64,000 bases of DNA, from NCBI GenBank assembly GCA_964489525.1, contig CAZAYY010000021.1:104-64103 (forward strand), written 5' to 3'. This DNA comes from an uncultured Anaerolineales bacterium (GTDB taxonomy: Bacteria > Chloroflexota > Anaerolineae > Anaerolineales > JABWBV01). The position numbers and the translations under genes were made by a program. The notes below the pieces were generated by a model. The model had not been told where the DNA came from and made no database searches. It saw only the letters and a program-made list of their open reading frames with translations. Shown here piece after piece: positions 23,964-61,859 of the stretch. Position 1 is the stretch's first letter; each line of letters opens with the position of its first letter.

Positions 23964-25469
23964 TCAGGGTACAACGGGCTTTTGCCATTGATAGACCGTC
24001 ATATTGGTTCCGCCTTGAGCTGGGGCAAACGGAGCCTGGGTTGAAAAAACCACCCGCCGGTCTTTTTCCAGGTAGGGATACCAGCCTGCCAGGGTGACCA
24101 GGTATTTCGGCTTGCGCTGGTCCAGGTAGGCTTCCAACTTTGGCTCATCCCGGATAAACGGAATGACATCCGGCAAAATCAGACCAGCCAGGTCCACAAT
24201 CGGGCGTTTGCCAAAATAGCCTAAAGCGCCAATATCATGCGCCGCCACCAGGGTTTGCGGGGCGCTGGTGGCCGCAATCCAACGAGCGGTTTCCACCATC
24301 TCCGACTCGATATAAGCAACATCCCTGGCATAAGCCTGCCCACCCAGTCCGCAAAAAACCAGCAGGGCTGCACCCACAGCCAATGACCAGGCCCGGCTGA
24401 GGATTCTCCGCCAGACAGTCCGGCTGTTTGGCCTTGCCCAGGCCGCCAGGCCTGCTAACGCCAACAGCAAAAAAACCGGTATGACAGGCATAATATAACG
24501 GCCATGCTGGTAGGTTACCGGCAGGCGAATGGCATACAATCCCAGGTAGCCCAACACCCAGAATATACTGGCCAACACAGGCCAGTTTTTTCGCCGCCAG
24601 GACTGGTAAGTTGTATTCAAAAAACCAGGCAGCAGCAAAGCCCCTACACCCACCAGGGGTAAACCCGCCTGCTGAACCAGGCGGACAAAGAGCGGCTGTT
24701 CGCGCAGCACAGCATATTCCGCCTGCTTGGCGAAAAATGTGTTCGGCCACCATGCGCCAGCCAGGGCCTGGTTAAAAACCAGGTACGGGAGAAACAGCGC
24801 TCCAAAACCCAAAAAAAACCAACCCAAAAGCCGCGCCCGAGTGAACCCCGCCTGGCGGCCAAAAGCGCCCACCAGCAGAACCGGGCCAAGCAGGGTGATG
24901 GCATCTGGCCGCAGCCAGGTACCCACCCCCACCAACCCACCCAACCCCAACCAGGCTAACGGGCGCGGGCGCATCCCAAGCGCAAGCCAACCCAATGCAG
25001 CAGTGACAACCACAGCAAAGCTCAGGGTTTCCATACCCGAAGCGGCCGCCCAAACCATGTGCCATTCCAAGACAAGCAGCAGCCCGGCCCAAAACGCATT
25101 CCCGGCTTTTTCAGGCGCATACGCCCGAAAAACAGACATCCCCACCAGGCCCAAGCCTGAAAGCGCCACCCAACCCAAAAAGAACGCCCATACCAGCGGC
25201 TCAACCCCAAGCGCATACCCCAATGCGAGCAGCACTGTCCAAAGCGGCGCGGTGGAGCCTGCCGTAGGTTGGCCAGGAAAAAACGACCACTCGCCGGACT
25301 GCCCCAGGCTGCGGGCGTAAGTTTGGTGAATCCAGGCATCGTCCAGCGGAAAACCAGGGCGGTAGAGCCAGGCGCTCGCCAGCAGATACAGTCCCACAAC
25401 CAGCCCGGCAGCCAGGCAAACCCAGGCATGCCAGCGCCATTTCCGCCAAAAAGCCGCAGCAAATTTCAT
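23964..25469 (-). CDS. polytopic membrane protein, putative GT-C glycosyltransferase (DDA-motif type)
   Basis: About 12 hydrophobic segments. An acidic motif follows TM1 (RPGFPLDDAWIHQTYARSLGQSGEW). There is a short C-terminal soluble domain. ATGA overlap with the upstream gene. Confidence 0.6.
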   Translation of the reverse strand: MKFAAAFWRKWRWHAWVCLAAGLVVGLYLLASAWLYRPGFPLDDAWIHQTYARSLGQSGEWSFFPGQPTAGSTAPLWTVLLALGYALGVEPLVWAFFLGWVALSGLGLVGMSVFRAYAPEKAGNAFWAGLLLVLEWHMVWAAASGMETLSFAVVVTAALGWLALGMRPRPLAWLGLGGLVGVGTWLRPDAITLLGPVLLVGAFGRQAGFTRARLLGWFFLGFGALFLPYLVFNQALAGAWWPNTFFAKQAEYAVLREQPLFVRLVQQAGLPLVGVGALLLPGFLNTTYQSWRRKNWPVLASIFWVLGYLGLYAIRLPVTYQHGRYIMPVIPVFLLLALAGLAAWARPNSRTVWRRILSRAWSLAVGAALLVFCGLGGQAYARDVAYIESEMVETARWIAATSAPQTLVAAHDIGALGYFGKRPIVDLAGLILPDVIPFIRDEPKLEAYLDQRKPKYLVTLAGWYPYLEKDRRVVFSTQAPFAPAQGGTNMTVYQWQKPVVP

Positions 25470-27079
25470 GGCAGCACCTCAAAAATCCGGGTTTCCCCAA
25501 CTGTATCCAGCAGCCGCAAGCCGGGTGAAGCCCCAGGGTCCTCGAACAGCCCGGCCAGCCCGGCCGGGTGATTGGCCTCCAAAACCACAAAACGGGCCTG
25601 GTAGCGCCGGGCGGCAGCCAGCAGCGCCCCTTCTCCCCCATCCGGAACCACGATCGCAGGGCGAGATGCAGCAGCAAAATACCCGGGGGGGTTGTTGATC
25701 ATCACAACATCGTCAGGCTGTGCACCCAATGCCTGCAGTTGGGATTCGACCTGGCGGTAGTGGCCATCAGGGGCATTCCAGGCCGGCGCCTGCGGGTCAG
25801 TGCCAATCACACGCCCCCAGCCGATAAACAGCGAAAGCCCGGCAGAGAAGAGAACCACAGAAAAGCTAAAAATTCGCCAGGCCTGGCGGGGGCGCCAACC
25901 GCGTGCCTGGCTTCCCCAACGAACAAAGACATCCAATCCAACCGCAGCAGCCAGCCAAAACAGCGGCTGCACAGCCGCACCCGAATGGAAAAAACCGCCG
26001 CGTGCCCCGGCAAAGGGAAAAATCACAGTCATCACGCCCATTGTAACCAGCCAGCCTAATACTCCCAACTGCACCACCCCCTCGCGGCGCAGCGTCCACA
26101 GCCCGACCAGCACCAGCGGCAGCAGGAAAATGCTGCCCTGCACAGCCAGCGTAGTTTGCAAATTTTGCCCCAGGGCAAAGGCGCGGGCCTGGAGCAGGCT
26201 TTCCCAACCAGCAGCCCACCAGTGTTCAAAAGTCAGCATGGTAGAAGGATAGATAAAGAGCTCGTCATAGGTGGTTAACCAAAGGGCACGCACACCTCCA
26301 GGAGCGAGTATTGAATTAAAAACCCCAAGGTTCCGCAGCGCCCAGGGGCCAAACACCAGGGCATAACCGGCCGCCAGCGCGACCGTGCGCAGCCCGGCCT
26401 GACGCAGCCGCACCCATATCGGGAGCGGGCCTGCATTGTAAAAACTCGCCAGAAACCCTACCCCAAGCCAGGTGAACCCATCCGCCCGCGAGAGATGCAT
26501 CAAACCAGCCATTGCCCCCATACCTGCAAACCCGGCCAGGCTGCGCGCCGCGAGTAAGCCAGGCGCACTGCCCGCCCCCTCTTGCAGCGAAAAACCCGCT
26601 AAAATCAACCAGGCCAAACCAAAAACCATATAAAGTCCAAATGTGTCTGTGGTGGTCAAAAATGGCAGGTAAAATCCGGGAAAACAAGCCAGCCATCCAG
26701 CCAGGCGGCTGATATCCTGCTTTTGAGTCCACTTGAACGCAAACCAGGCCGTCAGCGGCGGGATGCTCGCGGCAGCCAGGATGAACCCCAACCGGGCAGC
26801 GTTAAACTCGCCCAGCCACCCAAACCATTTCAACCCGGCTGCTGCCACCAGGGAGGCAAACGGCATCCAATATCCATGCGAGGGTTGGGGCAGGCCTTGC
26901 GGGTCGGAGAGATAATTCCACAACACCTTTTCTGTGAAGCCCTCTCCTTGCGCCAACTGCACCCCACCCATGTAATAATAATCGGCGTCCATATAGCCCG
27001 GCGCCTGTTGGAAAACCCCAACCAACAGCAGCAAACCCAGTGCAAGGCCAAATAATTGGAGAAAAAACGATCGCTTCAA
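25466..27079 (-). CDS. polytopic membrane protein, putative GT-C glycosyltransferase
   Basis: Motif APGYMDADYYYMGGVQLAQGEGF follows TM1. I prefer the TTG at 27079 as start: AAGGAG lies 5 nt upstream and it avoids overlap with the upstream stop at 27102. The track start is the ATG at 27121. Confidence 0.6.
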   Translation of the reverse strand: MKRSFFLQLFGLALGLLLLVGVFQQAPGYMDADYYYMGGVQLAQGEGFTEKVLWNYLSDPQGLPQPSHGYWMPFASLVAAAGLKWFGWLGEFNAARLGFILAAASIPPLTAWFAFKWTQKQDISRLAGWLACFPGFYLPFLTTTDTFGLYMVFGLAWLILAGFSLQEGAGSAPGLLAARSLAGFAGMGAMAGLMHLSRADGFTWLGVGFLASFYNAGPLPIWVRLRQAGLRTVALAAGYALVFGPWALRNLGVFNSILAPGGVRALWLTTYDELFIYPSTMLTFEHWWAAGWESLLQARAFALGQNLQTTLAVQGSIFLLPLVLVGLWTLRREGVVQLGVLGWLVTMGVMTVIFPFAGARGGFFHSGAAVQPLFWLAAAVGLDVFVRWGSQARGWRPRQAWRIFSFSVVLFSAGLSLFIGWGRVIGTDPQAPAWNAPDGHYRQVESQLQALGAQPDDVVMINNPPGYFAAASRPAIVVPDGGEGALLAAARRYQARFVVLEANHPAGLAGLFEDPGASPGLRLLDTVGETRIFEVLP

Positions 27080-27101
27080 AAAGGCTCCTTTATTCCAGCG
27101 G

Positions 27102-29090
27102 TCATGGCCCCGGCAGCGCATACAGCGTGTACACCTGGTTGTAATCCGTGGTTAAAACCAACTTGTCCAGCACCTGCTCAAAGCCCTGCCAATCGGCTGA
27201 ATTGTAGCGCGGCTCGGTGCGATAAAAAGATACCCCCTGCTGGTTCACCAGCACATGGCTGAACCCGGCAGCCTGCCAGGTTTCAATCATCTGGCCGGGG
27301 TTTTGCCCTTGCCGCCAGTCCATCAGCCAGCGGTCCACCACCTCGTCGGGGACACAAACGGGCGTGCAGTAAAAACTGCGCGGCTCCCAAAGCATCAACA
27401 CGCGACTGTTTTCAGGCAGCTCCATCAGCGACTGGAAAACCAGGCCAGCCATGCCCAGGTTGGTTTGTAAATATTCCTGGGTGGAAACCTGGGTTGTAAG
27501 CCAGCGAGCAGATCCCTGGCGCTGCAAGGCCACAGCAGATTGAACCCCATTTAACCCCAGCACGAGCAAAACCAGCACCCCAAACACCCGCCGCAGGCGC
27601 ACCCCAGGCCAGTGAACCGCCTGAACCCCTGCGAACCCCGCCCCTGCAAGTAAAGCCGCCGCAGGAAACAAGGCCCAATACAGGCGCGTTTGCACCAACA
27701 GCCCCGAAGCCAGGCTGGCAAACGCCCAAACCAACCAACCCAAGCCAAAAAACAGGGCCGCTGCCGACAGGGTTTGCCTGTGGCGGCTGGCCGCAAGGCT
27801 GGTGGGAAGAAAAGCCAAAACACCCAGGCCCAACAAAAGCGGGCCAATCGAAGCGCTGAAGCCAACTGCCGCTTCTCGCCCGTTTACTGTGGCCAACCAG
27901 GGAAGCAGCGGGGCCTGCCAGGCAGCCAGCCAGGCGGGTTGGTCCTGGTAAAGGTCAAGCCGCAGGCTGTTCATGGCCCCGGCAGGCAAAAAGAACGGGT
28001 AAAAAGGGCTGCCTGTGGTTGCCAGGTTCTTCATCCACCAGGGCAGAGAAACCAGCCCGGCAGCCAGCCCAAACACAACCACAGCCCAAAGCGCCTGCCG
28101 CCACCCGGCGCGGCGGGAATACCACCCCACCAATCCCAGGCCAGCCAGCAAAACTACGCCCGCCGTATATTTCGTCCCCAGGGCAAAACCAGCAAACATC
28201 CCGCCAAGAATGAGCAGCCGCACCGGGCGCTCTTCCTCGGCAGCCCACAAATCAAGGCAAGCAAACGCCCCCAGGCCAAACAGCAGGGTGAGCCAGTCCA
28301 CATACCCCCAACTGAGCGCACTGCTGAACGAAAAACCTGCCATTAGCGTTCCAACCGCCAGCCAGCCCTGGGTGGTTCCCAGGCGCTGAACGCCAAACGC
28401 CAGCAGCCCGGCCAGCGCCAGCAGCCCAAAAAGCCAGCCTATCACCGCAGCGGTTTCAATCCCGGCCAGGGCATACGCCCAGGTATACAGCATTTCCCCG
28501 GTTTGCGGCATGCCCCAAAACATCAGTTCCGGAACATATGTCACCCGGCCAGCGGCCAAGTACATTTTGGGCAGGGTGAAGTGGTAAACGAGGGCGTCGA
28601 ATTTCAGCGGAGGGGCAAGAGCAGTTACCAGGCCAAAACCCAACAGGCCGCCGCACAACACGCCCACCAATTTTTCCAGGCGGCCAGCGCTGCGCCAAAG
28701 AGCGCCCAGATCACCCCAGGCCAGCAGCCAGGCGAGCATGTCTTTTCGAAAAACCCAACCTAACCCAAGCAAAGCCGCCCAGGCCAACAGAGGGGAAACC
28801 CCCAAAAGGCTGCCCACCAGCAAAACACCCGCCCCCATCACCCCCAGGCCCAGGGCAGCCTGCAGGGCTGCCTGCGTTAAAGGGCGCAGCCCCAACCCGG
28901 GCGCAAACCGCCGGCCGATTGCCCCTGCCAGAGCAGCCAGCCCCCCTGCGAGCGTAAGCCGGAGCAAAGCAAGCCCCAGGCCGGCCGCAGCCTGGATGTC
29001 CAGCGGCTTGTTAACCCGGTAATACGCCGCCGTAACCAGCAGCAGCCAGGCAAGACCACCTAACGCAAGCCAACGAACAGAATGCTTCAT
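27102..29090 (-). CDS. polytopic membrane protein, putative GT-C glycosyltransferase (DAxxYH subfamily) with C-terminal soluble domain
   Basis: Motif LAPPLKFDALVYHFTLPKMYLAAGR...GEMLY. More than 12 hydrophobic segments. About 130 aa of C-terminal non-membrane domain. Confidence 0.6.
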   Translation of the reverse strand: MKHSVRWLALGGLAWLLLVTAAYYRVNKPLDIQAAAGLGLALLRLTLAGGLAALAGAIGRRFAPGLGLRPLTQAALQAALGLGVMGAGVLLVGSLLGVSPLLAWAALLGLGWVFRKDMLAWLLAWGDLGALWRSAGRLEKLVGVLCGGLLGFGLVTALAPPLKFDALVYHFTLPKMYLAAGRVTYVPELMFWGMPQTGEMLYTWAYALAGIETAAVIGWLFGLLALAGLLAFGVQRLGTTQGWLAVGTLMAGFSFSSALSWGYVDWLTLLFGLGAFACLDLWAAEEERPVRLLILGGMFAGFALGTKYTAGVVLLAGLGLVGWYSRRAGWRQALWAVVVFGLAAGLVSLPWWMKNLATTGSPFYPFFLPAGAMNSLRLDLYQDQPAWLAAWQAPLLPWLATVNGREAAVGFSASIGPLLLGLGVLAFLPTSLAASRHRQTLSAAALFFGLGWLVWAFASLASGLLVQTRLYWALFPAAALLAGAGFAGVQAVHWPGVRLRRVFGVLVLLVLGLNGVQSAVALQRQGSARWLTTQVSTQEYLQTNLGMAGLVFQSLMELPENSRVLMLWEPRSFYCTPVCVPDEVVDRWLMDWRQGQNPGQMIETWQAAGFSHVLVNQQGVSFYRTEPRYNSADWQGFEQVLDKLVLTTDYNQVYTLYALPGP

Positions 29091-30781
29091 GGCTGGTTTG
29101 CTCCAGTGGGATGGCGGAAATCATACACCAGCAGGTCACCCAGGGGAAAGGTATCTTCCAGGGAATAGTGGGTTTTGAACCAGGCCAGGTGGGGGTGTTC
29201 TGCTTCCCCCAGGGCGCGATACTCTGCTTCTTCCCGGGCAAAAATCACAAACCAGATCTGCCCGGCTCCAGCCGCTGCGCTGGCGGGGGATTCTTCTGCC
29301 AGCAAGCCCAACACCTGCTGGGTGGGCAAACCCAGTGTATCCTGCCCACTGCCTGGAATATCGGCAATATATGCCTGGGCCAGGCCAGGTTGGTAATAGG
29401 CCAACGGCAGCATTGTCAGTTTGTTGGCATGCACCAGGCGAAAACCCGGCTCAACTGCCTTGCTGGCTGCTACCTGTCCCAACAAATCAAATGGAGCATA
29501 GGGAAAACCCCGGTACCACAGGTGTTGGCTGTTGCCCAACTGCGAACCCAGGAAGAACAAACCAATGGCTGCCACCATCACCGGGCGCGGCAGGCGGGTG
29601 CCAGTCAGCGCCCAGGCCAACCAGAGCAAAAAGAATACCCCGGCAGGCAGCAGCGCCCGTTCAATATATACAGGCTGAACCTGCGAAATGAGAAACAAGA
29701 GCGCCACAGGGGCAAAAGCCATCCAGGCAAGCCAAAGGCCGCCCCAGGGTTTGGGGCCTGCCCGGCGAAAAGCCCGCCAGGTTTGCCAGCCAGCCAGGAC
29801 GATCAGAAAAATCATCACAAAAAGCGCCAGGGGCAGCCAGCCATCCGGAACAGGCAGGTTGGTGGTAAAGGTTAGCAGGGTTGTCAACAGCCTGCCCAGG
29901 CCGGGGCGGGTGGTCCAATAGGCCGTGTTGACCCGGGCCACCTGCGCCGGAAGCTGAATCAGCCAGGGCAGGTACAGCAGCACAGCCAGCAGCCCACCGG
30001 CCAGCGTCCCCAAAACGGGTTGCAATTTTCCGGAGGATAACGCCAAAGGCCGCAAACGGGCAAACGCAAAGTTCTCTTTTTCAGGGGCAATGCGTGGGGC
30101 GCCCCTTTCGGGTTGACGGGCAGCCCATTGTTCCCAAGCCCAAGTCATAAGTGGGGTGGCCGCCAGCGGCAGCAGGGTTACCACAGCCAGGGCGTGGGTA
30201 TATTGGGCCAGGGCGGCGCACACGCCAAAGGCAACCCACCAAAGCCACCGCCTCGTTTGCATGCCCAGCCAAAGCGCCAGGGCCGCCCCCACCAGGCTGG
30301 CAGACAAAAGGGCGTACATGCGAATTTCCTGGGCATAATGCACCTGGAAAGGAGAAAAAGCCAGGAAAAACCCGGCCAGCAGGGTAATTTTGAAGCGGTC
30401 TTGCGGCTGGGTTTCAAGTACACGCCAGACCAAACCGCAGGCCAGCGCAGCTGCAAGCAGCCCCAACCCCACGGAAAGAAGGCGCACCGCCACCAGCGAA
30501 TCGCCAAATGCATTCATCCAACCCCACAACAGGGTGTAATATCCCAGGGGGTGAATGTCTGCTGCAGTCCCGGCAGCGTTGACCGCCAGGGTGCCGTAAG
30601 CCATGGCGGTAGGACCTTGGGCGGAAAACAAAATCGAGAAGGCTTCATCGTACCAGATGGGACGGCTGGAAATGCCCAACAGGCGCACAAACCCAGCCAG
30701 GGTAAAACAACCCAGGCCCACAACAAACGGCCATTGAATTAAAGGGCGGGGCAAACGCTGGGGTTTCATCGGGCTGTCCAT
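29087..30781 (-). CDS. glycosyltransferase family 39/83-like (PMT_2/ArnT-like) membrane protein
   Basis: RPIWYDEAFSILFSAQG is the ArnT/PMT-type DE motif after TM1. The start is uncertain: ATG at 30781 or 30769. The track's GTG at 30880 would overlap the upstream gene by 73 nt. Confidence 0.7.
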   Translation of the reverse strand: MDSPMKPQRLPRPLIQWPFVVGLGCFTLAGFVRLLGISSRPIWYDEAFSILFSAQGPTAMAYGTLAVNAAGTAADIHPLGYYTLLWGWMNAFGDSLVAVRLLSVGLGLLAAALACGLVWRVLETQPQDRFKITLLAGFFLAFSPFQVHYAQEIRMYALLSASLVGAALALWLGMQTRRWLWWVAFGVCAALAQYTHALAVVTLLPLAATPLMTWAWEQWAARQPERGAPRIAPEKENFAFARLRPLALSSGKLQPVLGTLAGGLLAVLLYLPWLIQLPAQVARVNTAYWTTRPGLGRLLTTLLTFTTNLPVPDGWLPLALFVMIFLIVLAGWQTWRAFRRAGPKPWGGLWLAWMAFAPVALLFLISQVQPVYIERALLPAGVFFLLWLAWALTGTRLPRPVMVAAIGLFFLGSQLGNSQHLWYRGFPYAPFDLLGQVAASKAVEPGFRLVHANKLTMLPLAYYQPGLAQAYIADIPGSGQDTLGLPTQQVLGLLAEESPASAAAGAGQIWFVIFAREEAEYRALGEAEHPHLAWFKTHYSLEDTFPLGDLLVYDFRHPTGANQP

Positions 30782-30807
30782 CCGGGCGCGCACCAAAAGG
30801 AGCAATG

Positions 30808-32046
30808 CTACCTGAGGTTTTCTGAAAATTCGTGCAGCATCATTCGGGGCGAGCGCACTGCCCACCACCGCACCCACCACATCGCAAACAAGCAGAAAAA
30901 TGGAACCGGCAGGTACATCACCGCCTGCTCAACGTTTCCTTCAACGGTCCCCAAAAACAACGCCCACAGCCCCACCAGCAGGACAACCAGGGTGGCATAC
31001 ATCCATTGAACACCACCGGCTTTCCAACGCTGTTCCCACACCCGGAAAACCAACAGCATCACCGGGATGAGGGCCACAAAATGGGTGGTGGCCGTGCGCA
31101 AGGCGATGAAATTGGTCAGCACCAGGGTCATCAACGCTGTCCAGGTGAACCAGCGTTCGTCCTTGCCCCAGGCAAAAAACCACTCGGCAAACAAATAGAG
31201 AAAACCCAGCACATTTAAGGTGATATTGATGACACCGCGAATACCCGGGAGTCCATTGGCCAGAATGGAAACCACGGAGCCGATATCGGTGTAGCCGGGG
31301 TAAGCCACAATTTGCTGGAGCATTTGAATGGGCCAGGTGGGAATCAGCGCCATGGTAATCACAAATAAACCCACCGCACTGCCCGCCAGGCTGGCAAGTA
31401 AAATATACCGCCGCACCGAAAGTGCCCAGAGCACAATGAACGGCAGCAGCAAATAGACCATTTGCGGCTTGATGGTTGAAAGCGCAAGCAAAAACCCGGC
31501 CAGCACATCTTCCTTACGCTGGATGGCCAGTAAGCCCCAGATGATGAGAACCGTATTCAATGCTGCAATTTGACCATTAATCACATTGCGCACCCCCGAA
31601 TACCAAAGCAAGGCAAAAATCAGCAGGGCGGCCAGTTTGAGGGGTTTCACTTTCCAATCTACCAGGCGCAGGCTGAGAAACACACCAGCCACAAGGGCGG
31701 CTTGCAAAATGGTCATCCACAAAGCACGGGCAAAGGCAAAGTTTTCAAATAATGCCGGAATTCCAAAAAACACAATGGCATACAATGGATAAAGGTACGT
31801 GACCGGGTCTTCCCCAGGTCGAGCCGGGCGGCCATAATACCAGAACTGGCTTTCGCGGGTAACTTCATCGCTGTAAGGGTTGATTCCCTCCATCAGGTAC
31901 ATGCGCGAACCAAGGTAGCGCGGGACGAAATCTCCTCCACCAGGAAATTGTTCCGCAAAACGGTAATTCATCACTGTAACCCCAACCAGCGCGGCCCCTA
32001 ACAACAATAATACAACCAAAAAAAATAATCCACTTTGCTTGCGCAT
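30808..32046 (-). CDS. GT87/DUF2029-like membrane glycosyltransferase (PimE-like)
   Basis: FPGGGDFVPRYLGSRMYLMEGINPY fits the DUF2029 loop motif. 412 aa, about 10 TM segments, with STIKPQ in mid-protein. Confidence 0.65.
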   Translation of the reverse strand: MRKQSGLFFLVVLLLLGAALVGVTVMNYRFAEQFPGGGDFVPRYLGSRMYLMEGINPYSDEVTRESQFWYYGRPARPGEDPVTYLYPLYAIVFFGIPALFENFAFARALWMTILQAALVAGVFLSLRLVDWKVKPLKLAALLIFALLWYSGVRNVINGQIAALNTVLIIWGLLAIQRKEDVLAGFLLALSTIKPQMVYLLLPFIVLWALSVRRYILLASLAGSAVGLFVITMALIPTWPIQMLQQIVAYPGYTDIGSVVSILANGLPGIRGVINITLNVLGFLYLFAEWFFAWGKDERWFTWTALMTLVLTNFIALRTATTHFVALIPVMLLVFRVWEQRWKAGGVQWMYATLVVLLVGLWALFLGTVEGNVEQAVMYLPVPFFCLFAMWWVRWWAVRSPRMMLHEFSENLR

Positions 32047-32058
32047 GCAGCCTCCAGG

Positions 32059-38461: not shown

Positions 38462-38465
38462 ATCA

Positions 38466-39410: not shown

Positions 39411-39412
39411 GT

Positions 39413-45576: not shown

Positions 45577-45585
45577 TGAAAAACC

Positions 45586-46749: not shown

Positions 46750-46755
46750 CGCCAG

Positions 46756-48258: not shown

Positions 48259-48267
48259 AATTCATCC

Positions 48268-49668: not shown

Positions 49669-49748
49669 ATCAGCCCATATTTACCCGATTACGCCAAAAA
49701 CCAACAACTTGCCAGTCCTGTGCCCAAGCTGTGACAACGGCATATCCA

Positions 49749-55701: not shown

Positions 55702-56723
55702 ACTTGCTCCTTTGGATTGAATAAGCGGGTATACCAGCCTTTTCCCATTTCTACCATGGGTTTCTCAAGCGGTTCCAGCCAGCTTAAGCCCATAGAAACA
55801 CCCCAGGCTGAGGGTCGTTCAGGTTTATGCAGAAACACCCACAGCACAAAGGGGTAAAGCATGGCTGCGCTGCGCCAATGTTCTGAAAAACCCATCAACA
55901 CAATGGGAAGCCACAAAAAACCCCACAAAATGTACCGCTGCCATGTTCGAACCCTGCCCAACGCGGGGAGCAAGGGGATGTAGTGGTTGACCATCATATA
56001 AGGGAATAGCAGAGCACCTGCGCACATCAGGCGGTCGGGGTCACGGTCAAAACGGAGGGTATAGAGCATCATCCCCAGGGCAGCCGCTCCAAATGGCCAA
56101 CCCAATCGCCAAGCGCTGATATTGTGAACGCTCACCAGACTTCCAGCATCCTGGGCAACACCTAGTTGGGTTATGGGCCATAACCCCCACACCAGAAAAG
56201 TGAGCAGGCCAAACACAGCCGCCATCCAAAGCCAACGAAAACGAGCAAACAAAGCCCAAATCACCACCTGAGGCTTAATCAGCACCAGGGGAATCCCCCA
56301 GGGCAGCAGCGCCAGGCCTAAAATCAAAAAGGCATCGGCAGGCCCGTGCGAAAGGCTGACCAGGATTGGGAAGTTAAACCCTGCCATGGCAACGGCAATG
56401 GTATTGTGGGATATTTTCCAGGTATAAAAAGCAACAATGACCCACCCCAGGGCAGTAAACCAGGTTTTCCCTCCCTCCCAATTAAACAGGCCGAAAAACC
56501 AGGCAGACCAGGGCGGGTAAAACCGCAGCCCGTCGGGCTGGGTATAAAAACGGTTCCAGTCCGAAAGTTCATCCTGGGGCAAAATGGAAAACAACTGCCA
56601 AACCAGACCAAAAATCACACCCCAAATTACCAGAGATAACCAGGGTTTGAGCCAGGGATATTGCTTATTTCTGGCTTCTACCCAGGCAGCCAGCGAAGAT
56701 TGGGTTGGCGGGTCTTCAGACAT
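55698..56723 (-). CDS. polytopic membrane protein, possibly GT87/DUF2029-related
   Basis: 341 aa with about 9 TM segments. LVLIKPQVVIW echoes STIKPQMVYL of the 30808-32046 product. ATGA overlap with the downstream gene. Confidence 0.45.
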   Translation of the reverse strand: MSEDPPTQSSLAAWVEARNKQYPWLKPWLSLVIWGVIFGLVWQLFSILPQDELSDWNRFYTQPDGLRFYPPWSAWFFGLFNWEGGKTWFTALGWVIVAFYTWKISHNTIAVAMAGFNFPILVSLSHGPADAFLILGLALLPWGIPLVLIKPQVVIWALFARFRWLWMAAVFGLLTFLVWGLWPITQLGVAQDAGSLVSVHNISAWRLGWPFGAAALGMMLYTLRFDRDPDRLMCAGALLFPYMMVNHYIPLLPALGRVRTWQRYILWGFLWLPIVLMGFSEHWRSAAMLYPFVLWVFLHKPERPSAWGVSMGLSWLEPLEKPMVEMGKGWYTRLFNPKEQV

Positions 56724-56833: not shown

Positions 56834-58276
56834 GTGCACCCCCAAAAATTCCTACCCAACCTCGCATACACCCAATCCCGCCGCGCCCACTGGGATAAAG
56901 TTGCCCAGAGCATGCCCACCCTGAGCCGCTGGAGCCGTTTCTACCAGCAAAAACTGGCCGAATATTACCGGTTTTTCATCCCCCCAGGTTTAAGGGTTTT
57001 GGAATTGGGCTGCGGCAGAGGCGATTTGCTGGCCGCGCTGGAGCCTTCTTATGGTGTCGGGATTGATTTTTCCGGTCAAATGCTCAAACAAGCAAATGCC
57101 CATTACCCCAGTCTGCACTTTGTCCAAGGCGATGCCCATGCACTCCCCATGGGAACCCATTTTGATGTGGTGATTCTGTCCGACCTGGTCAACGACCTGT
57201 GGGATGTCCAGCAGATGTTGGAAGGCTTACAGCGGGTTTGCCAGCCCCACACCCGAATCATCCTTAATACTTTTTCATACCTCTGGGAAGCCCCCCTGAC
57301 CCTGGCGCAGCGCGCTGGCTTAAGTAAGCCCAGCCTGGAACAAAACTGGCTGGCCGTGGAAGACCTGGAACACCTGCTGCACCTGACGGGATATGAGTTG
57401 GTTCGCCGCCGCCGGGCTTTGCTGCTGCCTTTGTATCTCCCTCTGATAACCACCATTGCCAACCGCTATCTCGCCCATCTCTGGCCTTTCAACCACGGCG
57501 CATTGACCAACTTCCTGGTGGCGCGCCCGGCGCCCTGCCCAAAGGCACCCAACAAGGCCCCGCTGGTTTCGGTCATCGTCCCGGCCCGCAACGAAGCGGG
57601 CAATATCCAGGCCGTGTTTGAACGCACCCCAGAAATGGGCGCCGGGACCGAATTGGTGTTTGTGGAAGGCCATTCAACCGATGACACCTTCGCCGCCATT
57701 CAAGCAGCCATCAACCAATTCCCCCAGCGAAAAGCCCAACTTCACCGGCAAACTGGCAAAGGCAAAGGCGACGCCGTCCGGCTGGGCTTTTCCAAAGCCC
57801 GTGGCGACATCCTGATGATTCTGGATGCCGACCTGACCGTACCCCCGGAAGACCTGTCCCGCTTTTATGAAGCCCTGGTCTCTGGCAAAGGCGAATTTAT
57901 TAACGGGGTGCGGCTGGTTTACCCGATGGAAAACCAGGCGATGCGCTCGCTCAACAAACTGGGCAACAAGTTCTTCAGTATTGCGTTTTCCTGGCTGCTC
58001 GGCCAACCCATCAAAGATACCCTGTGCGGCACGAAAGTGCTGTGGAAAAAAGATTATCAGAAAATCGCCGACAACCGCGCCTACTTTGGCGACTTCGACC
58101 CCTTTGGCGATTTCGACCTTCTCTTCGGCGCGGCCCGCCTGAACCTGAAAATTGTAGACCTGCCCGTGCGCTACCAAGCCCGGCGCTACGGCCAAACCAA
58201 CATCAGCCGCTGGAAACACGGCTGGCTGCTGCTGCGCATGGTGGCCTTCGCTGCAGGGAAGCTAAAGTTTGTTTAA
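56834..58276 (+). CDS. bifunctional-looking fusion: class I SAM methyltransferase (N) + GT2 DPM1-like glycosyltransferase (C)
   Basis: The N-terminal half has VLELGCGRGDLLAAL...DVVILSDLVNDL. The C-terminal half has VSVIVPARNEAGNIQAV...FVEGHSTDDT...ILDADLTVPPEDL. GTG start at 56834 with GAGGG upstream. Confidence 0.8.
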   Translation: MHPQKFLPNLAYTQSRRAHWDKVAQSMPTLSRWSRFYQQKLAEYYRFFIPPGLRVLELGCGRGDLLAALEPSYGVGIDFSGQMLKQANAHYPSLHFVQGDAHALPMGTHFDVVILSDLVNDLWDVQQMLEGLQRVCQPHTRIILNTFSYLWEAPLTLAQRAGLSKPSLEQNWLAVEDLEHLLHLTGYELVRRRRALLLPLYLPLITTIANRYLAHLWPFNHGALTNFLVARPAPCPKAPNKAPLVSVIVPARNEAGNIQAVFERTPEMGAGTELVFVEGHSTDDTFAAIQAAINQFPQRKAQLHRQTGKGKGDAVRLGFSKARGDILMILDADLTVPPEDLSRFYEALVSGKGEFINGVRLVYPMENQAMRSLNKLGNKFFSIAFSWLLGQPIKDTLCGTKVLWKKDYQKIADNRAYFGDFDPFGDFDLLFGAARLNLKIVDLPVRYQARRYGQTNISRWKHGWLLLRMVAFAAGKLKFV

Positions 58277-58343: not shown

Positions 58344-60011
58344 TCATGGCGATGGATTCAAATCAAGGTCACGAGGCTCTACTTTTTCAGAAAGCGCATA
58401 GAACACATCATAATCCCCAATCCGGGTTTCTTTCCAGGTCACGCCCAGGGCGGTGAAACCAGCCCGCAGGCGTTCGTTCAGTTCTGGGTGGTGGGTGGTG
58501 ATGTAGGCGGCTCGTTCAGCTGAATCCACCTCCACCTGGTAAAGCGCATAACGGTTGTCGCGGCTGGTGTAGCGAAAATCCAGGTGGTATGGCAGCGCCG
58601 GGACGTAAACCAATTCTTCAGCCGATTCAAAAGCCAACGGGTACGCCACCCAATAATTGGTATATCCATGCACCTCGCCATTTTCTTTAAGGAAATCCTG
58701 CAGTGCATCTATATGCCGGTGGTCAACCCAGGTAACCGGGTAAAACTGGGTGGTAATGCCCGGCGGGTAGCGCAGGGCGCTCTGCACGTTTCCTGCAAGG
58801 TGAAACACCAACACCATGACCACCAGGCCAAGTGCCCAACCACCATAATGCTGCTTAAGAGAATCAATGAACGCTGCCGCAAATAACGCCATGGGAACTG
58901 CCAGGGGCAAAAAATAGCGCCCGGAAGGGTCAGCGCCAAAGGGGGTGAACACAAACCCAATCACCAGCGCCGCCATCACGCCTTTAAGCAGCCCCTGGCC
59001 TGGGTTGACTTCCACAGCCAGGGCAGGCTCTGGCAGGCCTTTTTTCCCGCCTAAAACTCGCCAAAACACGGCTGCCCAAAACATGAGCACAAACGGAATC
59101 AAGGGCAGAGCCAGCCAGCGAATTTCCCAGGGGGGACGAAAACCCAAAATGACCGTGGTGCCCAATACCAGGAAAGAAAACAAATGCTGCAACACCGAAT
59201 CAAAAACAGAAAGCCCCCCTACCCCTGCAATAGCCCCGCCGCCCATTTCAAACAGCAAAACATCCAACCCTCTGTTGACCGCAAACCACAACCAGGGAAA
59301 TGCCCCGAGTGCCAGCCCGGCCAGCCCAACAGCAACCAGCCCCAACAAATGCGGCAGGGGCATCCCAGCCCGGACGTGCCGGGCAGCCCAAAACAACAGC
59401 ATGATTGCAACCGGTATCGAAAAAACCAGGGTAAGCCCAAAAGCCCACACCCCCACTCCAACCAGCAAACCCATCCAGGCAAACCGCCCTGCCAACCTGG
59501 CAGGGCGCTCCTCGCCCACGCCCTGGCCTGCTACCCCCAACCCGGCCAACATGAGCAAATTGCCCAACAAGAGCGCCTCGCCGTACCCGCCCAGGCTGGC
59601 CGTGGTATACAAAGTGGTGTTCACGGTTGGAATGGCCAGCAGCCAGGCCGCCAGCGCACCGACCTGCCAGCGGCGAAAAATCTTTTCTCCCAATAACGCA
59701 GTGGTAATGATGGTTCCCAGGTATAACAACACCTGAACATGCCGGATCACCCAGGCGTGCTGGCCAAAAACCAGGAAGCCCAGGGCTACCAACATTGCAT
59801 CCAGGCTGCCCATGTATGCCTGGCCGTAGAAAAAAACGGGAAAAGACCCCTGCAGCATATGCCGGGCCATCAGGGCAACAATCGCCTCATCGGAATTTAA
59901 AGGAACCACATCCGCCAACAGCAGCGCCATTTTTAAAAGCGCACTCACCAGCAGCCCACCAACCAGCCAGGCAAATTTTTGAGTCTTTAAAGGCATTGGC
60001 AAAAGTTTCAT
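58344..60011 (-). CDS. glycosyltransferase family 39/83-like (PMT_2/ArnT-like) membrane protein
   Basis: Motif VVPLNSDEAIVALMARHMLQGSFPVFFYGQAYMG after TM1. There is a C-terminal soluble domain. Confidence 0.65.
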   Translation of the reverse strand: MKLLPMPLKTQKFAWLVGGLLVSALLKMALLLADVVPLNSDEAIVALMARHMLQGSFPVFFYGQAYMGSLDAMLVALGFLVFGQHAWVIRHVQVLLYLGTIITTALLGEKIFRRWQVGALAAWLLAIPTVNTTLYTTASLGGYGEALLLGNLLMLAGLGVAGQGVGEERPARLAGRFAWMGLLVGVGVWAFGLTLVFSIPVAIMLLFWAARHVRAGMPLPHLLGLVAVGLAGLALGAFPWLWFAVNRGLDVLLFEMGGGAIAGVGGLSVFDSVLQHLFSFLVLGTTVILGFRPPWEIRWLALPLIPFVLMFWAAVFWRVLGGKKGLPEPALAVEVNPGQGLLKGVMAALVIGFVFTPFGADPSGRYFLPLAVPMALFAAAFIDSLKQHYGGWALGLVVMVLVFHLAGNVQSALRYPPGITTQFYPVTWVDHRHIDALQDFLKENGEVHGYTNYWVAYPLAFESAEELVYVPALPYHLDFRYTSRDNRYALYQVEVDSAERAAYITTHHPELNERLRAGFTALGVTWKETRIGDYDVFYALSEKVEPRDLDLNPSP

Positions 60012-60158: not shown

Positions 60159-61859
60159 ATGGCACACTCCAAAAGTCCTACTGTACACCAACCCCGCCAG
60201 CCTGCCCATATGAACCTGAACCCGGTTCTGCTGGCGTCCCTGGTAGGTCTGGCAGCACTGGCAGCCCGGGTCCTACCTGGGGCTCGCACCATTGACGATG
60301 CCTATATCACCTTCCGCTATGCTTATAACCTACTCAGCGGCAGCGGATTGGTATATAACCCTGGCGAGTGGGTTTTGGGCACCACCACACCAGTGTATGC
60401 TGCGCTGATGGCGTTTTCAGGTTTTTTTGCAGGCGGACCGCAGGCGAATTTCCCGGTGCTCGCCCTGGGAATCAACATCATCGCCGATATCCTGACGTGC
60501 TGGCTGCTGCTCTGGTTGGGAAGAAAGGGTCAGATTCCAGCAGCCGGGGCTGCTGCAGCGCTGGCCTGGGCAGTTTTGCCCTTTAGCGTAACTTTCGCCA
60601 TTGGCGGGCTGGAAACCAGCCTGTTTGTCTTGCTGCTAACCGCAACCACCAGTGCCCATCTGGCAGAGCGTCGAGTTTGGACCGCCTTTCTGGCCGCCCT
60701 CAGCCTGCTCACCCGGCCCGATGCGCTGCTGCTGCTGGGTCCGCTAGCCCTCGACCGGTTCTGGACGGGCTGGGCTGCGCCCTGGCTGGCGCACCGGAAA
60801 TCCAAACTCGACCATTCCGCCCCCAAAAAAGCCGCGCCGCAGCAAGGCAGCAATCATCGCCCCAACATCACCTGGGGTGAAGCTGCTGCCGCCACAGTGC
60901 CTGTTTTGGCCTGGTTCGGGTATGCAACCCTGGTCTATGGCAGCCCGCTGCCTCACTCCGTAACCGCCAAAAGCGTGGCTTACCTGCTGCCGGACACCCA
61001 GGCATTCGTCCGGCTGCTGCAGCACTACACCACCCCCTTCATGGAAAACCTGGCCTTTGGCGTGCCGGCGATCTGGGTTGGGGTCTTTCTACATCCATTT
61101 TTATTTCTGGTAGGCGCCCGGCGGCTGGCTCGTACAGCACCCCGGTTGTGGCCCTGGCTGCTGTACCCCTGGGTTTTTTTTGTGGTCTTCGCCATCGCCA
61201 ACCCGCTCATTTTTCGCTGGTACCTGACCCCGCCGCTGGTTCCCTATATCTTTACCATCCTGGCCGGGGTGGCAACCCTGGGCGGGGATGTTCATTCAGC
61301 GCTGGCCGGGCGGTTTAAAGGCGCCCCCTCCCTGGCCTTGCTGGGCCGGGTCGCCCTCGTGATTGTGCCAGCGGCCCTGGCGCTGAATGGATGGGTGCGC
61401 CAGCCTGACCACGGGCTGACCCGACCTGCCCCTGACATGGCCTGGTATGCCCTGGAGCTGGAATATGCCAAGGCGGCAAACCTGCTGCTTAAAGAAATCG
61501 ATGGAAAACAACCTTTGCCAACGATTGCCGCTGGCGATGTGGGCGTGATTGGCTACGTCACCCGTGCGCCCATCCTCGACCTGGTGGGGTTGAATTCTCC
61601 CCAATCGGTGAGGTACTACCCCCTGCCGCCGGAAATGCATGCCAACACCTTCGCGGTCGCGCCGGATTTAATCCTCTCAGAAATGCCCGATTACATCGTA
61701 CTGCTCGAAGTATATGGGCGCGAGTCTTTGTTCAAAAACCCCCAATTCCAGCAAACTTATACCCTGCTCTACCGGATCGAAACCGATATTTATGGCAGCG
61801 AAGGGATGTTGATTTTCAAGAAGAAAAGCAACGAATCAGGCCCACCCCCGGCCCCATAG
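60159..61859 (+). CDS. polytopic membrane protein, putative GT-C glycosyltransferase (DDA-motif type)
   Basis: Motif ARTIDDAYITFRYAYNLLSGSGLVYNPGEWVLGTTTP. An alternative start lies at ATG 60210 (MNLNPVLL). C-terminal soluble domain of ~150 aa. Confidence 0.65.
   Translation: MAHSKSPTVHQPRQPAHMNLNPVLLASLVGLAALAARVLPGARTIDDAYITFRYAYNLLSGSGLVYNPGEWVLGTTTPVYAALMAFSGFFAGGPQANFPVLALGINIIADILTCWLLLWLGRKGQIPAAGAAAALAWAVLPFSVTFAIGGLETSLFVLLLTATTSAHLAERRVWTAFLAALSLLTRPDALLLLGPLALDRFWTGWAAPWLAHRKSKLDHSAPKKAAPQQGSNHRPNITWGEAAAATVPVLAWFGYATLVYGSPLPHSVTAKSVAYLLPDTQAFVRLLQHYTTPFMENLAFGVPAIWVGVFLHPFLFLVGARRLARTAPRLWPWLLYPWVFFVVFAIANPLIFRWYLTPPLVPYIFTILAGVATLGGDVHSALAGRFKGAPSLALLGRVALVIVPAALALNGWVRQPDHGLTRPAPDMAWYALELEYAKAANLLLKEIDGKQPLPTIAAGDVGVIGYVTRAPILDLVGLNSPQSVRYYPLPPEMHANTFAVAPDLILSEMPDYIVLLEVYGRESLFKNPQFQQTYTLLYRIETDIYGSEGMLIFKKKSNESGPPPAP

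What the first reader, a model, noticed from the sequence alone, without database searches (positions are those of the whole stretch)
23964..61859. Thirteen GT-C-like polytopic membrane proteins packed around a Wzm/Wzt export pathway in one 38-kb locus
Seen in the sequence:
- There are 13 ORFs of 341-756 aa, each with 9 or more hydrophobic segments.
- All but one have an acidic motif just after the first TM. Examples: LDDAWIH, MDADYYY, KFDALVYH, WYDEAF, GGGDFVPRY, LPDDAFYY, GWDSLTYH, WWDEGW, HYDAIMYH, LDTDTWWH, NSDEAI, IDDAYITF.
- They are interleaved with wzm/wzt, six soluble GTs (three GT2, two GT4, one GT11), two polyprenyl-phosphate-sugar-synthase-like GT2s, an epimerase and methyltransferases.
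- Most genes are co-directional with 0-10 nt gaps or ATGA overlaps, for example the run from 56723 down to 35906.

Established knowledge: GT-C enzymes (ArnT, PMTs, PimE, EmbA-C, AftA-D) act on the outer face of the membrane and use polyprenyl-phosphate sugars as donors.

Inference: an ABC-exported glycan is extensively rebuilt or branched outside the cell by a battery of lipid-donor-dependent transferases. This is formally analogous to mycobacterial LAM/arabinogalactan assembly, but in an unrelated gene context. I know of no characterised locus with this GT-C density. No initiating phosphoglycosyltransferase, Wzx, Wzy or ligase is recognisable in the window.
Basis: partly seen in the sequence, partly recalled or inferred. 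Interest (0 to 1): 0.72.

Follow-up and report, generated by a model that had tools for sequence, protein, structure and literature searches.

The report
Conserved membrane glycosyltransferase array with inserted exporter block
An Anaerolineales (Chloroflexota) bacterium has a conserved row of membrane-embedded sugar-transferase genes next to rpoD, and in this genome a variable block encoding an ABC polysaccharide exporter has been inserted into it, which points to an undescribed way of building the poorly understood Chloroflexota cell surface.

Summary
Window 23964-61859 carries 13 polytopic membrane proteins interleaved with wzm/wzt, six soluble GTs, a PgfS/ArnC-like polyprenyl-phosphate-sugar synthase, an epimerase and methyltransferases.

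Twelve of the 13 have evidence of GT-C ancestry:
- Pfam PMT_2 or GT87 hits for g8, g13, g9 and (below threshold) g10.
- An AlphaFold model (pLDDT 89) for g11, whose best 19 PDB matches are all GT-C enzymes.
- PMT_2-annotated homologues for g30 and g7.
- hhalign probabilities of 91-100% for g26, g5, g6, g31 and g28.

g27 is unresolved. It belongs to a very large family with no annotation.

In other Anaerolineales genomes, seven of these genes (g31, g30, g27, g9, g7, g6, g5) form a compact array. It sits between the same flanks, rpoD and a LuxR-type two-component system, and contains no wzm/wzt and no soluble GTs. The window therefore holds a lineage-conserved GT-C core plus a roughly 22-kb accessory block inserted into a variable slot.

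The likely function is glycan assembly on the outer face of the membrane from polyprenyl-phosphate sugars. This is inferred, not shown. I rate it a new variant of a known kind, of moderate interest.

The parts
23964..25469 (-). g5: core GT-C-like membrane protein with an LDDAWIH motif
   Evidence: Orthologues in L008, L010 and L002 (E 1e-105 to 1e-172). hhalign gives 93% to the g11 family, 99% to g31 and 98% to g10. The DD motif is conserved. No Pfam hit.
25466..27121 (-). g6: core GT-C-like membrane protein with an MDADYYY motif
   Evidence: Orthologues in L006, L008, L010 and L002. hhalign gives 92.8% to the g5 family and 86.5% to g7. The Asp is conserved. No Pfam hit.
27102..29090 (-). g7: core GT-C (PMT_2-like, DUF8201-type) with an FDALVYH motif
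   Evidence: Orthologues hit PMT_2; L003:7736-9571 scores E 7e-13. Orthologues are also annotated DUF8201. hhalign gives 99.8% to g11.
29087..30880 (-). g8: PMT_2 GT-C, semi-core; the true start is probably near 30781
   Evidence: Pfam PMT_2, 27.8 bits against a cut-off of 26.1. Orthologue in L011 at E 1e-139. hhalign gives 93% to g30.
30808..32046 (-). g9: core GT87-family GT-C
   Evidence: Pfam GT87, E 8e-13. Orthologues in L002, L006, L008, L010 and L011. D39 and the KPQ motif are invariant.
32059..33684 (-). g10: accessory GT-C-like protein, an old paralogue of g5
   Evidence: PMT_2 below threshold, E 5.9e-5. hhalign gives 98% to g5. No orthologue in the compact arrays.
33766..35916 (+). 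g11: accessory GT-C, 716 aa (the longest ORF starts at 33646)
   Evidence: AF2 model with pLDDT 89.3 and pTM 0.92. The best 19 Foldseek PDB matches are all GT-C enzymes, including ArnT 5ezm (E 3e-5), AglB, STT3, AftA, DPY19, PglB, EmbB and Pmt. D148 is invariant.
35906..36832 (-). g12: NAD-dependent sugar epimerase/dehydratase
   Evidence: Pfam Epimerase, E 6e-65.
36899..38473 (-). g13: accessory PMT_2 GT-C with a WWDEGW motif
   Evidence: Pfam PMT_2, 36.3 bits against a cut-off of 26.1.
38466..41352 (-). g14 and g15 (GT2) and g16 (GT11, fucosyltransferase-like); g15 and g16 are low in GC
   Evidence: Pfam hits. GC is 0.44 for g15 and 0.39 for g16.
41515..43683 (-). wzt (g17, 41515-42750, with a C-terminal extension) and wzm (g18, 42817-43683)
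   Evidence: Pfam ABC_tran, ABC2_membrane and a weak Wzt_C hit (E 8e-4, below cut-off). NCBIfam TagH and galactan-export Wzt models.
43814..50918 (-). g19 GT2, g20 methyltransferase, g21 GT4, g22 DUF362, g23 PaaK/CapK-like adenylate-forming ligase, g24 GT4
   Evidence: Pfam and NCBIfam hits.
50915..52027 (-). g25: polyprenyl-phosphate-sugar synthase-like GT2 (PgfS/ArnC/GtrB type) with two C-terminal TM helices
   Evidence: NCBIfam PgfS E 4e-82 and ArnC E 2e-57, both below the equivalog cut-offs. TM helices at 289-331. Its orthologue lies next to the core array in L003.
52119..54152 (-). g26: accessory GT-C, an old paralogue of g7 (28% identity)
   Evidence: hhalign gives 100% to g7 and 97.9% to g11. 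BLASTP identity.
54187..55701 (-). g27: core polytopic protein, GT-C-like by architecture only
   Evidence: Eleven hydrophobic segments plus a 120-aa C-terminal domain. D27 and W30 are invariant. The family has 22,646 cluster representatives. No Pfam, NCBIfam, PDB or hhalign link was found. Orthologues are present in L008 (two copies), L009, L010 and L011.
55698..56723 (-). g28: small accessory GT87-like protein
   Evidence: hhalign gives 91.5% (E 9e-7) to a GT87 profile, with the GQ and KPQ motifs aligned. The AF2 model has pLDDT 75.7. Foldseek is inconclusive: ArnT is the top match at E 0.77.
56834..58276 (+). g29: methyltransferase fused to GT2 (AglJ-like / dolichyl-phosphate-hexose-transferase-like), no TM helix
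   Evidence: Pfam and NCBIfam hits.
58344..60011 (-). g30: core ArnT/GT39-like GT-C (550 aa in the public annotation)
   Evidence: 2,557 homologues. Many of them carry PF13231 or are named ArnT-like or GT39. D36 and E37 are invariant. hhalign gives 93% to g11.
60159..61859 (+). g31: core GT-C-like protein with an IDDAYITF motif
   Evidence: NCBIfam AZOBR_p60025 glycopolymer-formation family E 2e-8 and AftB E 2e-4, both below cut-off. hhalign gives 99.2% to g5. Orthologues in L008-L011.
21997..23775 (-). Conserved left flank: histidine kinase (g3) and LuxR-type response regulator (g4)
   Evidence: Pfam hits. The same response regulator (and kinase in L010) follows the g5 orthologue in L008 and L010.
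61930..63159 (-). Conserved right flank: rpoD
   Evidence: Pfam hits. 80% identical to the L008 rpoD, which lies next to the g31 orthologue there.

Best explanation
The region is a composite surface-glycan locus of an Anaerolineales bacterium.

Part one is a lineage-conserved array of polytopic GT-C-type glycosyltransferase genes: g31, g30, g27, g9, g7, g6 and g5, with g8 in some genomes. It is fixed between rpoD and a LuxR-type two-component system.

Part two is a genome-specific block of about 22 kb (g26 to g10, roughly 32059-54152), together with g28 and g29. It sits in a variable slot of the array. It brings a Wzm/Wzt ABC exporter, six cytoplasmic GTs, a PgfS/GtrB/ArnC-like polyprenyl-phosphate-sugar synthase, an epimerase, methyltransferases, a CapK-like ligase and four more GT-C genes.

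Inferred mechanism:
1. The cytoplasmic GTs build a polymer on a polyprenyl carrier primed elsewhere in the genome.
2. Wzm/Wzt exports it.
3. g25, and perhaps g29, charge polyprenyl phosphate with single sugars.
4. The GT-C enzymes transfer these sugars on the outer face of the membrane, each through an invariant Asp in the first external loop.

The conserved core probably assembles or extends a lineage-wide envelope glycopolymer. The inserted block would add a strain-specific part.

Shown: gene content, GT-C ancestry for 12 of 13 proteins, and the core-plus-insertion structure. Inferred: donors, acceptors, order of reactions, and any coupling between the two parts.
For: GT-C identity:
- Pfam PMT_2 or GT87 hits.
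- The g11 AF2 model, with only GT-C enzymes among its 19 best PDB matches.
- g30 homologues annotated PMT_2, ArnT-like or GT39.
- g7 orthologues that hit PMT_2.
- A profile-profile network joining g5, g6, g7, g26, g10, g31, g11, g30 and g8 at 79-100% probability, and joining g28 to GT87 at 91.5%.
- An invariant Asp after the relevant TM helix in every family.
- Net positive charge before that helix in 12 of the 13 proteins (balanced in g10), consistent with an in-to-out helix.

Core plus insertion:
- L008 and L010 carry rpoD, g31, g30, g27, g9, g7, g6, g5 and the response regulator in that order, with no wzm/wzt inside.
- Identity to the window is 41-58% for the core proteins and 80% for rpoD.
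- L009 and L011 hold different sugar genes after g27.
- The block g9, g7, g6, g5 also occurs in L002, L003 and L006.
- g15 and g16 have 39-44% GC against 52-62% for the rest of the locus.
- Loci of the closest Wzt relatives lack these proteins.

Donor supply: g25 resembles PgfS and ArnC and has two C-terminal TM helices. Its orthologue directly follows the core array in L003.
Against: - There are no biochemical data.
- g27 has no homology or fold evidence. It could be a polymerase or ligase-type enzyme, or not a transferase at all.
- The fold search for g28 was inconclusive.
- Only two of the 13 proteins could be modelled.
- No GtrA-type flippase and no initiating phosphoglycosyltransferase are present in the window.
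- Only about seven related loci were inspected, each covering 10 kb or less either side of the match. Those genomes could carry wzm/wzt elsewhere and still feed the core array.
- The topology test is a crude charge count.
- Profile searches against PDB sequences found nothing for g11, g30 or g27.
Confidence: 0.6

Rival explanations
1. All 13 GT-C enzymes and the Wzm/Wzt pathway form one integrated pathway, in which a single ABC-exported glycan is extensively rebuilt outside the cell.
For: All the genes lie in one 38-kb stretch, mostly co-directional, and 9 of 16 junctions in the main run are tight. g25 supplies a lipid-linked donor. The accessory GT-C genes g26, g13, g11 and g10 travel with the wzm/wzt block.
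Against: The seven core genes occur as an intact array without wzm/wzt in L008 and L010. The closest Wzt relatives are not linked to these proteins. The low GC of g15 and g16 suggests the block has a mosaic origin.
Confidence: 0.2
2. The array glycosylates proteins. The PMT_2/GT39-like enzymes would O-glycosylate secreted or envelope proteins, such as Tad pilins or surface-layer proteins, rather than build a polysaccharide.
For: PMT_2 is the protein O-mannosyltransferase family. The best NCBIfam match of g25 is PgfS, from the Streptococcus mutans protein-glycosylation system. Tad pilus genes lie 3-9 kb away. T2SSE ATPase genes also lie near the g11 homologue in L004.
Against: Seven to eight mutually divergent GT-C families conserved as one array fit stepwise assembly of a complex glycan better than parallel protein transferases. 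GT87 members and the AftB-like g31 act on lipoglycans or polysaccharides in the known cases (established knowledge). Linkage to the Tad genes was not examined in the relatives; the fetched loci stop at the two-component genes.
Confidence: 0.12
3. Some members, above all g27, are not monosaccharide transferases using polyprenyl-phosphate sugars. They could be polymerases or ligases using polyprenyl-diphosphate donors (Wzy, WaaL or SEDS-like), or transporters. That would supply the polymerase or ligase that appears to be missing.
For: g27 has no link to any GT-C family. One homologue weakly hits an oligosaccharide repeat-unit polymerase model at E 0.004. Polymerases and ligases are also polytopic, have a GT-C-type fold and carry external acidic residues (PMC10920833).
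Against: The single weak hit occurs in 1 of 21 members. No Wzy_C hit appears at E <= 0.1. The N-terminal layout of g27 (TM1, a 39-residue loop with an invariant Asp, then four closely spaced TM helices) matches g5 and g30.
Confidence: 0.25

Closest known systems
Three-component extracytoplasmic glycosylation systems (GtrA/GtrB/Gtr*, and the pentofuranose systems described in PMC11127046)
   Same: A GT2 polyprenyl-phosphate-sugar synthase (g25) occurs together with GT-C transferases. These systems can act on glycans exported by ABC transporters (PMC11127046).
   Different: No GtrA-type flippase was found in the window. The known systems have one GT-C per system, whereas this locus has 12-13. 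Most of the GT-C genes here form a conserved array that is independent of the exporter.
Mycobacterial and corynebacterial arabinogalactan / LM-LAM assembly (EmbA-C, AftA-D, PimE, MptA-C)
   Same: Many different GT-C enzymes act in series outside the membrane with polyprenyl-phosphate sugars. A GT87 member and an AftB-like weak hit are present. An ABC-type exporter takes part in the pathway (established knowledge).
   Different: The phylum and gene context are unrelated. No UbiA/DprE-type donor genes are present. Sequence similarity is limited to the fold level. From memory, the M. tuberculosis embCAB-aftA-aftB region holds about six GT-C genes in roughly 35 kb, against 12-13 in 38 kb here.
Rhamnose-rich cell-wall polysaccharide loci of Gram-positive cocci and the S. 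mutans Pgf system
   Same: An ABC-exported backbone is combined with side-chain addition by GT-C enzymes outside the membrane, using a GtrB/PgfS-like synthase (PMC9574508, PMC10821137). g25 best matches PgfS.
   Different: Those loci carry one to three GT-C genes. They have no counterpart of the conserved rpoD-linked array.
Lumenal steps of eukaryotic N-glycan assembly (ALG3/9/12/6/8/10, then STT3)
   Same: A series of distinct GT-C enzymes uses polyprenol-phosphate monosaccharides on the non-cytoplasmic face. STT3 and ALG-type structures are among the fold matches.
   Different: The resemblance is an analogy only. No orthology was shown, no oligosaccharyltransferase motif was tested, and the acceptor is unknown.

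Membership tests
GT-C fold glycosyltransferases | Polytopic membrane protein with 8-14 TM helices | tested here: met
   Twelve proteins have 10-15 hydrophobic segments. g28 is almost entirely helical in its AF2 model. The g11 model shows a multi-helix membrane domain plus a C-terminal mixed alpha/beta domain.
GT-C fold glycosyltransferases | Three-dimensional similarity to solved GT-C structures | tested here: inconclusive
GT-C fold glycosyltransferases | Conserved acidic catalytic residue in the first extracytoplasmic loop | tested here: met
   An Asp is invariant in the alignments of the g11, g9, g28, g30, g27, g5, g6, g7, g8 and g31 families. Outward orientation is supported only by a charge count and by homology.
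GT-C fold glycosyltransferases | Sequence-profile membership of a recognised GT-C family (PMT_2/GT39/GT83, or GT87) | tested here: inconclusive
   Above the Pfam threshold: g8, g13 and g9. Below threshold: g10. Through homologues: g30 and g7. Through hhalign only: g5, g6, g26, g31, g11 and g28. None: g27.
GT-C fold glycosyltransferases | Use of a lipid-phosphate-linked sugar donor on the outer face of the membrane | not testable with these tools
   Only indirect support: a PgfS/ArnC-like synthase, g25, is in the locus.
Wzm/Wzt ABC-transporter-dependent glycan pathway | ABC-2 permease paired with a Wzt/TagH-type ATPase | tested here: met
   g18 hits ABC2_membrane at E 8e-22. g17 hits ABC_tran, and the NCBIfam TagH and galactan-export Wzt models at E 1e-55 to 5e-59, below the equivalog cut-offs.
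Wzm/Wzt ABC-transporter-dependent glycan pathway | Wzt C-terminal carbohydrate-binding domain together with a chain-terminating modification | tested here: inconclusive
   Wzt_C scores E 8e-4 and 19.9 bits against a cut-off of 30.4. Methyltransferases g20 and g29 are present, but a capping role was not tested.
Wzm/Wzt ABC-transporter-dependent glycan pathway | Initiating phosphoglycosyltransferase | tested here: not met
   None was found among the major ORFs of the 64-kb window. In the known systems this gene is often located elsewhere on the chromosome (PMC11127046).
Three-component (GtrA/GtrB/GT-C) glycosylation system | GtrB-like polyprenyl-phosphate-sugar synthase | tested here: met
   g25 matches PgfS at E 4e-82 and ArnC at E 2e-57, and has two C-terminal TM helices.
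Three-component (GtrA/GtrB/GT-C) glycosylation system | GtrA-family flippase | tested here: not met
   No ORF in the locus hits GtrA. The intergenic gaps are 162 nt or less, which leaves no room for an unlisted gene.
Mycobacterial arabinan/mannan-type assembly | Dedicated donor-synthesis genes (UbiA-type PRPP transferase, DprE1/E2, Ppm1) | tested here: not met
   No such Pfam hits were found in the window. Only the generic GT2 synthase-like genes g25 and g29 are present.

The most novel reading that the evidence does not exclude
The rpoD-linked array of seven to eight GT-C genes is the assembly line for a major glycopolymer of the Chloroflexota envelope, conserved across the lineage. The polymer would be built almost entirely on the outer face of the membrane from polyprenyl-phosphate sugars, like a bacterial counterpart of the ER-lumenal ALG series or of mycobacterial arabinan synthesis. 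This polymer would form the non-lipid outer layers that make these organisms, which lack LPS and BAM, look diderm-like. The slot after g27 would act like an O-antigen locus and diversify the surface between strains.
Probability: 0.2. Interest if true: 0.8.

Novelty: new variant of a known kind. Interest (0 to 1): 0.55.

Why it matters
The make-up of the Chloroflexota cell envelope is still an open question. These bacteria stain Gram-negative and can look multilayered, but they lack the LPS and BAM pathways. The outer layers are suspected to be polysaccharide or protein (PMC13319060).

A conserved chromosomal array of seven to eight different GT-C enzymes gives a concrete and testable genetic candidate for how such layers are made. 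The array has a strain-variable slot that can take up a complete ABC-exporter pathway.

The locus also points to at least one very large family of membrane proteins with no annotation (g27), and to several GT-C-related families that current Pfam and NCBIfam models miss.

I found no paper describing this array in the searched literature.

Tried and rejected
- Profile searches of the g11, g30 and g27 family alignments against PDB sequences found nothing useful. The only g27 matches were chance hits to kinases.
- Pfam and NCBIfam scans of 21 members of the g27 family gave nothing. Cluster names were all 'hypothetical protein'.
- Single-sequence phmmer among the 13 proteins linked only g5 with g10 and g7 with g26. 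Profiles enlarged with orthologues were needed.
- The link between g9 and g28 depends on the make-up of the profile. It is 88-91% with diverse GT87 paralogues, 27% with a four-sequence profile, and below 5% with a profile of closer g9 relatives lacking two divergent L002 paralogues.
- Promoter and terminator scans returned mostly intragenic matches and say nothing about operon structure.
- The g11 homologue with 40% identity (L004/L005) lies outside any GT-C cluster, next to GFO_IDH_MocA and DegT genes. g11 is therefore accessory, not core.
- I considered and dropped the idea that the ABC transporter upstream of rpoD in L008-L010 is Wzm/Wzt. It comes with ABC_transp_aux and DUF4340 genes, and its ATPase matches g17 only at E 1e-16 to 1e-20.
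- An exact look-up of the window's own proteins found only a 3-kb Logan contig and an unnamed NCBI contig of 68,576 bp. The source organism is therefore known only as a relative of Anaerolineales MAGs.

Full report
**Gene map and check of the observation**

ORF listing and translation give 28 genes between 23964 and 61859. Thirteen encode polytopic membrane proteins:

| Gene | Coordinates | Strand |
|---|---|---|
| g5 | 23964-25469 | - |
| g6 | 25466-27121 | - |
| g7 | 27102-29090 | - |
| g8 | 29087-30880 | - |
| g9 | 30808-32046 | - |
| g10 | 32059-33684 | - |
| g11 | 33646/33766-35916 | + |
| g13 | 36899-38473 | - |
| g26 | 52119-54152 | - |
| g27 | 54187-55701 | - |
| g28 | 55698-56723 | - |
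| g30 | 58344-60011 | - |
| g31 | 60159-61859 | + |

- GT2: g14, g15, g19.
- GT4: g21, g24.
- GT11: g16.
- Wzm (g18) and Wzt (g17).
- Epimerase g12 and methyltransferase g20.
- g25, a PgfS/ArnC-like GT2 (E 4e-82 and 2e-57) with two C-terminal TM helices.
- g29, a methyltransferase-GT2 fusion.
- Also g22 (DUF362) and g23 (PaaK/CapK-like ligase).

No initiating phosphoglycosyltransferase, Wzx, Wzy_C or GtrA hit appears in any major ORF of the window.

Some details need correcting.
- In g7, g11 and g26 the acidic motif follows the 3rd-5th hydrophobic segment.
- g28 also has a motif, with D55-W56 invariant.
- Only 9 of the 16 junctions in the run g28 to g12 are tight.

An acidic residue close to a TM helix is expected by chance. 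The informative result is that the Asp is invariant in every family alignment. The 15 residues before the preceding helix are net positive in 12 of the 13 proteins and balanced in g10. This is a crude sign that the helix runs from inside to outside.

**Are the 13 proteins GT-C?**

Direct Pfam hits are few:
- PMT_2 above threshold for g8 and g13.
- PMT_2 just below threshold for g10.
- GT87 for g9.

The proteins are very divergent from each other. phmmer links only g5 with g10 and g7 with g26.

For g11 I collected 16 homologues. The AF2 model has pLDDT 89.3 and pTM 0.92. Its best 19 PDB matches are all GT-C enzymes: ArnT, AglB, STT3, AftA, DPY19, PglB, EmbB and Pmt1/2/4. Unrelated transporters follow only at low probability.

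g30 has more than 2,500 homologues at about 50-60% identity. Many of the listed ones carry PF13231 or are named ArnT-like or GT39.

Orthologues of g7 hit PMT_2, with a best E of 7e-13.

Profiles enlarged with orthologues from related loci give the following hhalign links:

| Pair | Probability |
|---|---|
| g7-g26 | 100% |
| g7-g11 | 99.8% |
| g5-g31 | 99.2% |
| g5-g10 | 98% |
| g8-g30 | 93.4% |
| g5-g11 | 93.1% |
| g5-g6 | 92.8% |
| g6-g7 | 86.5% |
| g11-g30 | 79-93% |

The g5-g11 alignment starts at the Asp motif in both proteins.

g28 aligns to a diverse GT87 profile at 91.5% (E 9e-7), with the GQ and KPQ motifs matched. Its own AF2 model (pLDDT 75.7) gave only non-significant matches to ArnT, ALG12 and ALG9.

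g27 stays unresolved.
- It belongs to a very large family: 22,646 cluster representatives at E <= 1e-3 and 1,538 at E <= 1e-30.
- It has no Pfam, NCBIfam, PDB or hhalign link, and all source names are 'hypothetical protein'.
- Only its architecture and an invariant Asp after TM1 resemble GT-C.

In total, 12 of 13 have some evidence of GT-C ancestry. The evidence is strong for about seven and rests on profile comparison for the rest.

**Context in related genomes**

A genome scan with g9 placed the relatives in Anaerolineales MAGs. Look-ups around homologues then showed the key pattern.

- **L008** (Anaerolineales, GCA_054665115.1). The order is rpoD, a 294-aa gene, g31 (opposite strand), g30, g27, a second g27, g9, g7, g6, g5, and a LuxR-type response regulator.
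- **L010** (GCA_964503625.1). The order is the same, with one g27, an extra PMT_2-like gene, and a response regulator plus kinase at the end.

These are the same flanks as in the window, where rpoD is g32 and the response regulator and kinase are g4 and g3. Identity to the window is 41-58% for the membrane proteins and 80% for rpoD. Neither array contains wzm/wzt or any soluble GT.

- **L009 and L011** keep rpoD, g31, g30 and g27. Different sugar-nucleotide genes then follow (epimerases, DegT, dTDP-sugar enzymes, a GT2) before GT87 or g7-type genes resume.
- **L002, L003 and L006** carry the g9, g7, g6, g5 block, with extra GT87 or PMT_2 paralogues. In L003, orthologues of g25 and g24 follow directly after the block.

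The accessory GT-C genes have no orthologue in the compact arrays. The 40%-identical homologue of g11 sits in an unrelated context.

Looked at from the exporter side, the 80 metagenomic loci with the closest Wzt relatives (800 kb in total) include only one with any detectable homologue of the 13 proteins.

g15 and g16 have 39-44% GC, against 52-62% for the rest of the locus.

The window is therefore a conserved GT-C core into which an accessory block of about 22 kb has been inserted (g26 to g10, including wzm/wzt). g28, g29 and g8 are further additions.

**Mechanism**

Shown by the analyses here:
- The gene content.
- The GT-C ancestry.
- The invariant Asp residues.
- The presence of a GtrB/ArnC/PgfS-type synthase.
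- The composite structure of the locus.

Inferred from established knowledge of GT-C enzymes and of three-component and ABC-dependent pathways (PMC11127046, PMC9574508):
1. Cytoplasmic GTs build a polymer on a carrier that is primed elsewhere in the genome.
2. Wzm/Wzt exports it. A methyl cap read by the C-terminal extension of Wzt is possible but untested. The Wzt_C hit is below threshold.
3. g25, and possibly g29, make polyprenyl-phosphate sugars.
4. The GT-C enzymes add these sugars outside the membrane.

Because the core array is conserved without the exporter, it most likely makes or extends a lineage-wide envelope glycopolymer. The slot after g27 would add strain-specific chemistry.

Three alternatives remain open:
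- Protein O-glycosylation.
- A polymerase or ligase role for g27. Such enzymes are also polytopic and have GT-C-type folds (PMC10920833).

**Comparison with known systems and novelty**

The logic matches three known kinds of system: three-component extracytoplasmic glycosylation, rhamnose-rich cell-wall polysaccharide loci, and mycobacterial arabinogalactan/LAM assembly. Several defining parts of those systems were looked for and not found here:
- No GtrA flippase.
- No UbiA/DprE donor genes.
- No primer transferase in the window.

The number and conservation of the GT-C genes go beyond those systems. From memory, not tested here, the M. tuberculosis embCAB-aftA-aftB region has about six GT-C genes.

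Literature searches found no description of GT-C arrays in Chloroflexota. The nature of the Chloroflexota outer envelope layers is an open question (PMC13319060).

I rate this a new variant of a known kind, with moderate interest (0.55). The most novel reading still open is that the array builds the enigmatic outer layers of the Chloroflexota envelope. I give that about 0.2 probability.

Noticed in passing
window 2547-7640: Two identical 73-nt tRNA-Met genes (2547-2619 and 7568-7640, both on the + strand) bracket a 4.9-kb segment. The segment carries a tyrosine integrase (6540-7502, - strand) and several ORFs with no Pfam hit. It looks like a small element integrated at tRNA-Met.
   Followed up: partly
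window 14693-21394: A Tad/Flp pilus gene set lies just left of the two-component genes: TadB/C-like T2SSF (two genes), a CpaF-like T2SSE ATPase, a response-regulator-ParA/CpaE-like ATPase, and CpaB/RcpC. T2SSE genes also lie near the g11 homologue in L004. A possible link to pilin glycosylation was not tested.
   Followed up: no
window 39413-41352: g15 (GT2) and g16 (GT11) have 44% and 39% GC, against 52-62% for the rest of the locus. This suggests recent horizontal acquisition inside the accessory block.
   Followed up: partly
window 54187-55701 (g27): g27 belongs to a very large family of membrane proteins of about 490 aa (22,646 50%-identity cluster representatives at E <= 1e-3). No Pfam or NCBIfam model covers it and it has no solved relative. 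It has a strongly conserved C-terminal motif, YNWGGYLIW...FIDGRxDxYGDE.
   Followed up: partly
L008 11626-14579: The compact array in Anaerolineales GCA_054665115.1 carries the g27 orthologue as a tandem duplicate. Both copies are about 53% identical to g27.
   Followed up: no
window 46756-49668: A DUF362 protein (g22) and a PaaK/F390-synthetase/CapK-like adenylate-forming enzyme (g23) sit among the cytoplasmic GTs. This hints at a non-sugar acyl or amino-acid substituent on the glycan.
   Followed up: no
window 63160-64000: About 840 nt next to the rpoD start contain no long ORF on the rpoD (minus) strand; only that strand was translated. GC for 62001-64000 is 0.47. In relatives an ABC_tran / ABC2_membrane / ABC_transp_aux / DUF4340 operon lies beyond rpoD.
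   Followed up: no
L003 9387-13542: The orthologues of g9, g6 and g5 in this uncultured Chloroflexia MAG are split into several ORFs. The cause is probably frameshift errors in the assembly, or pseudogenes.
   Followed up: no
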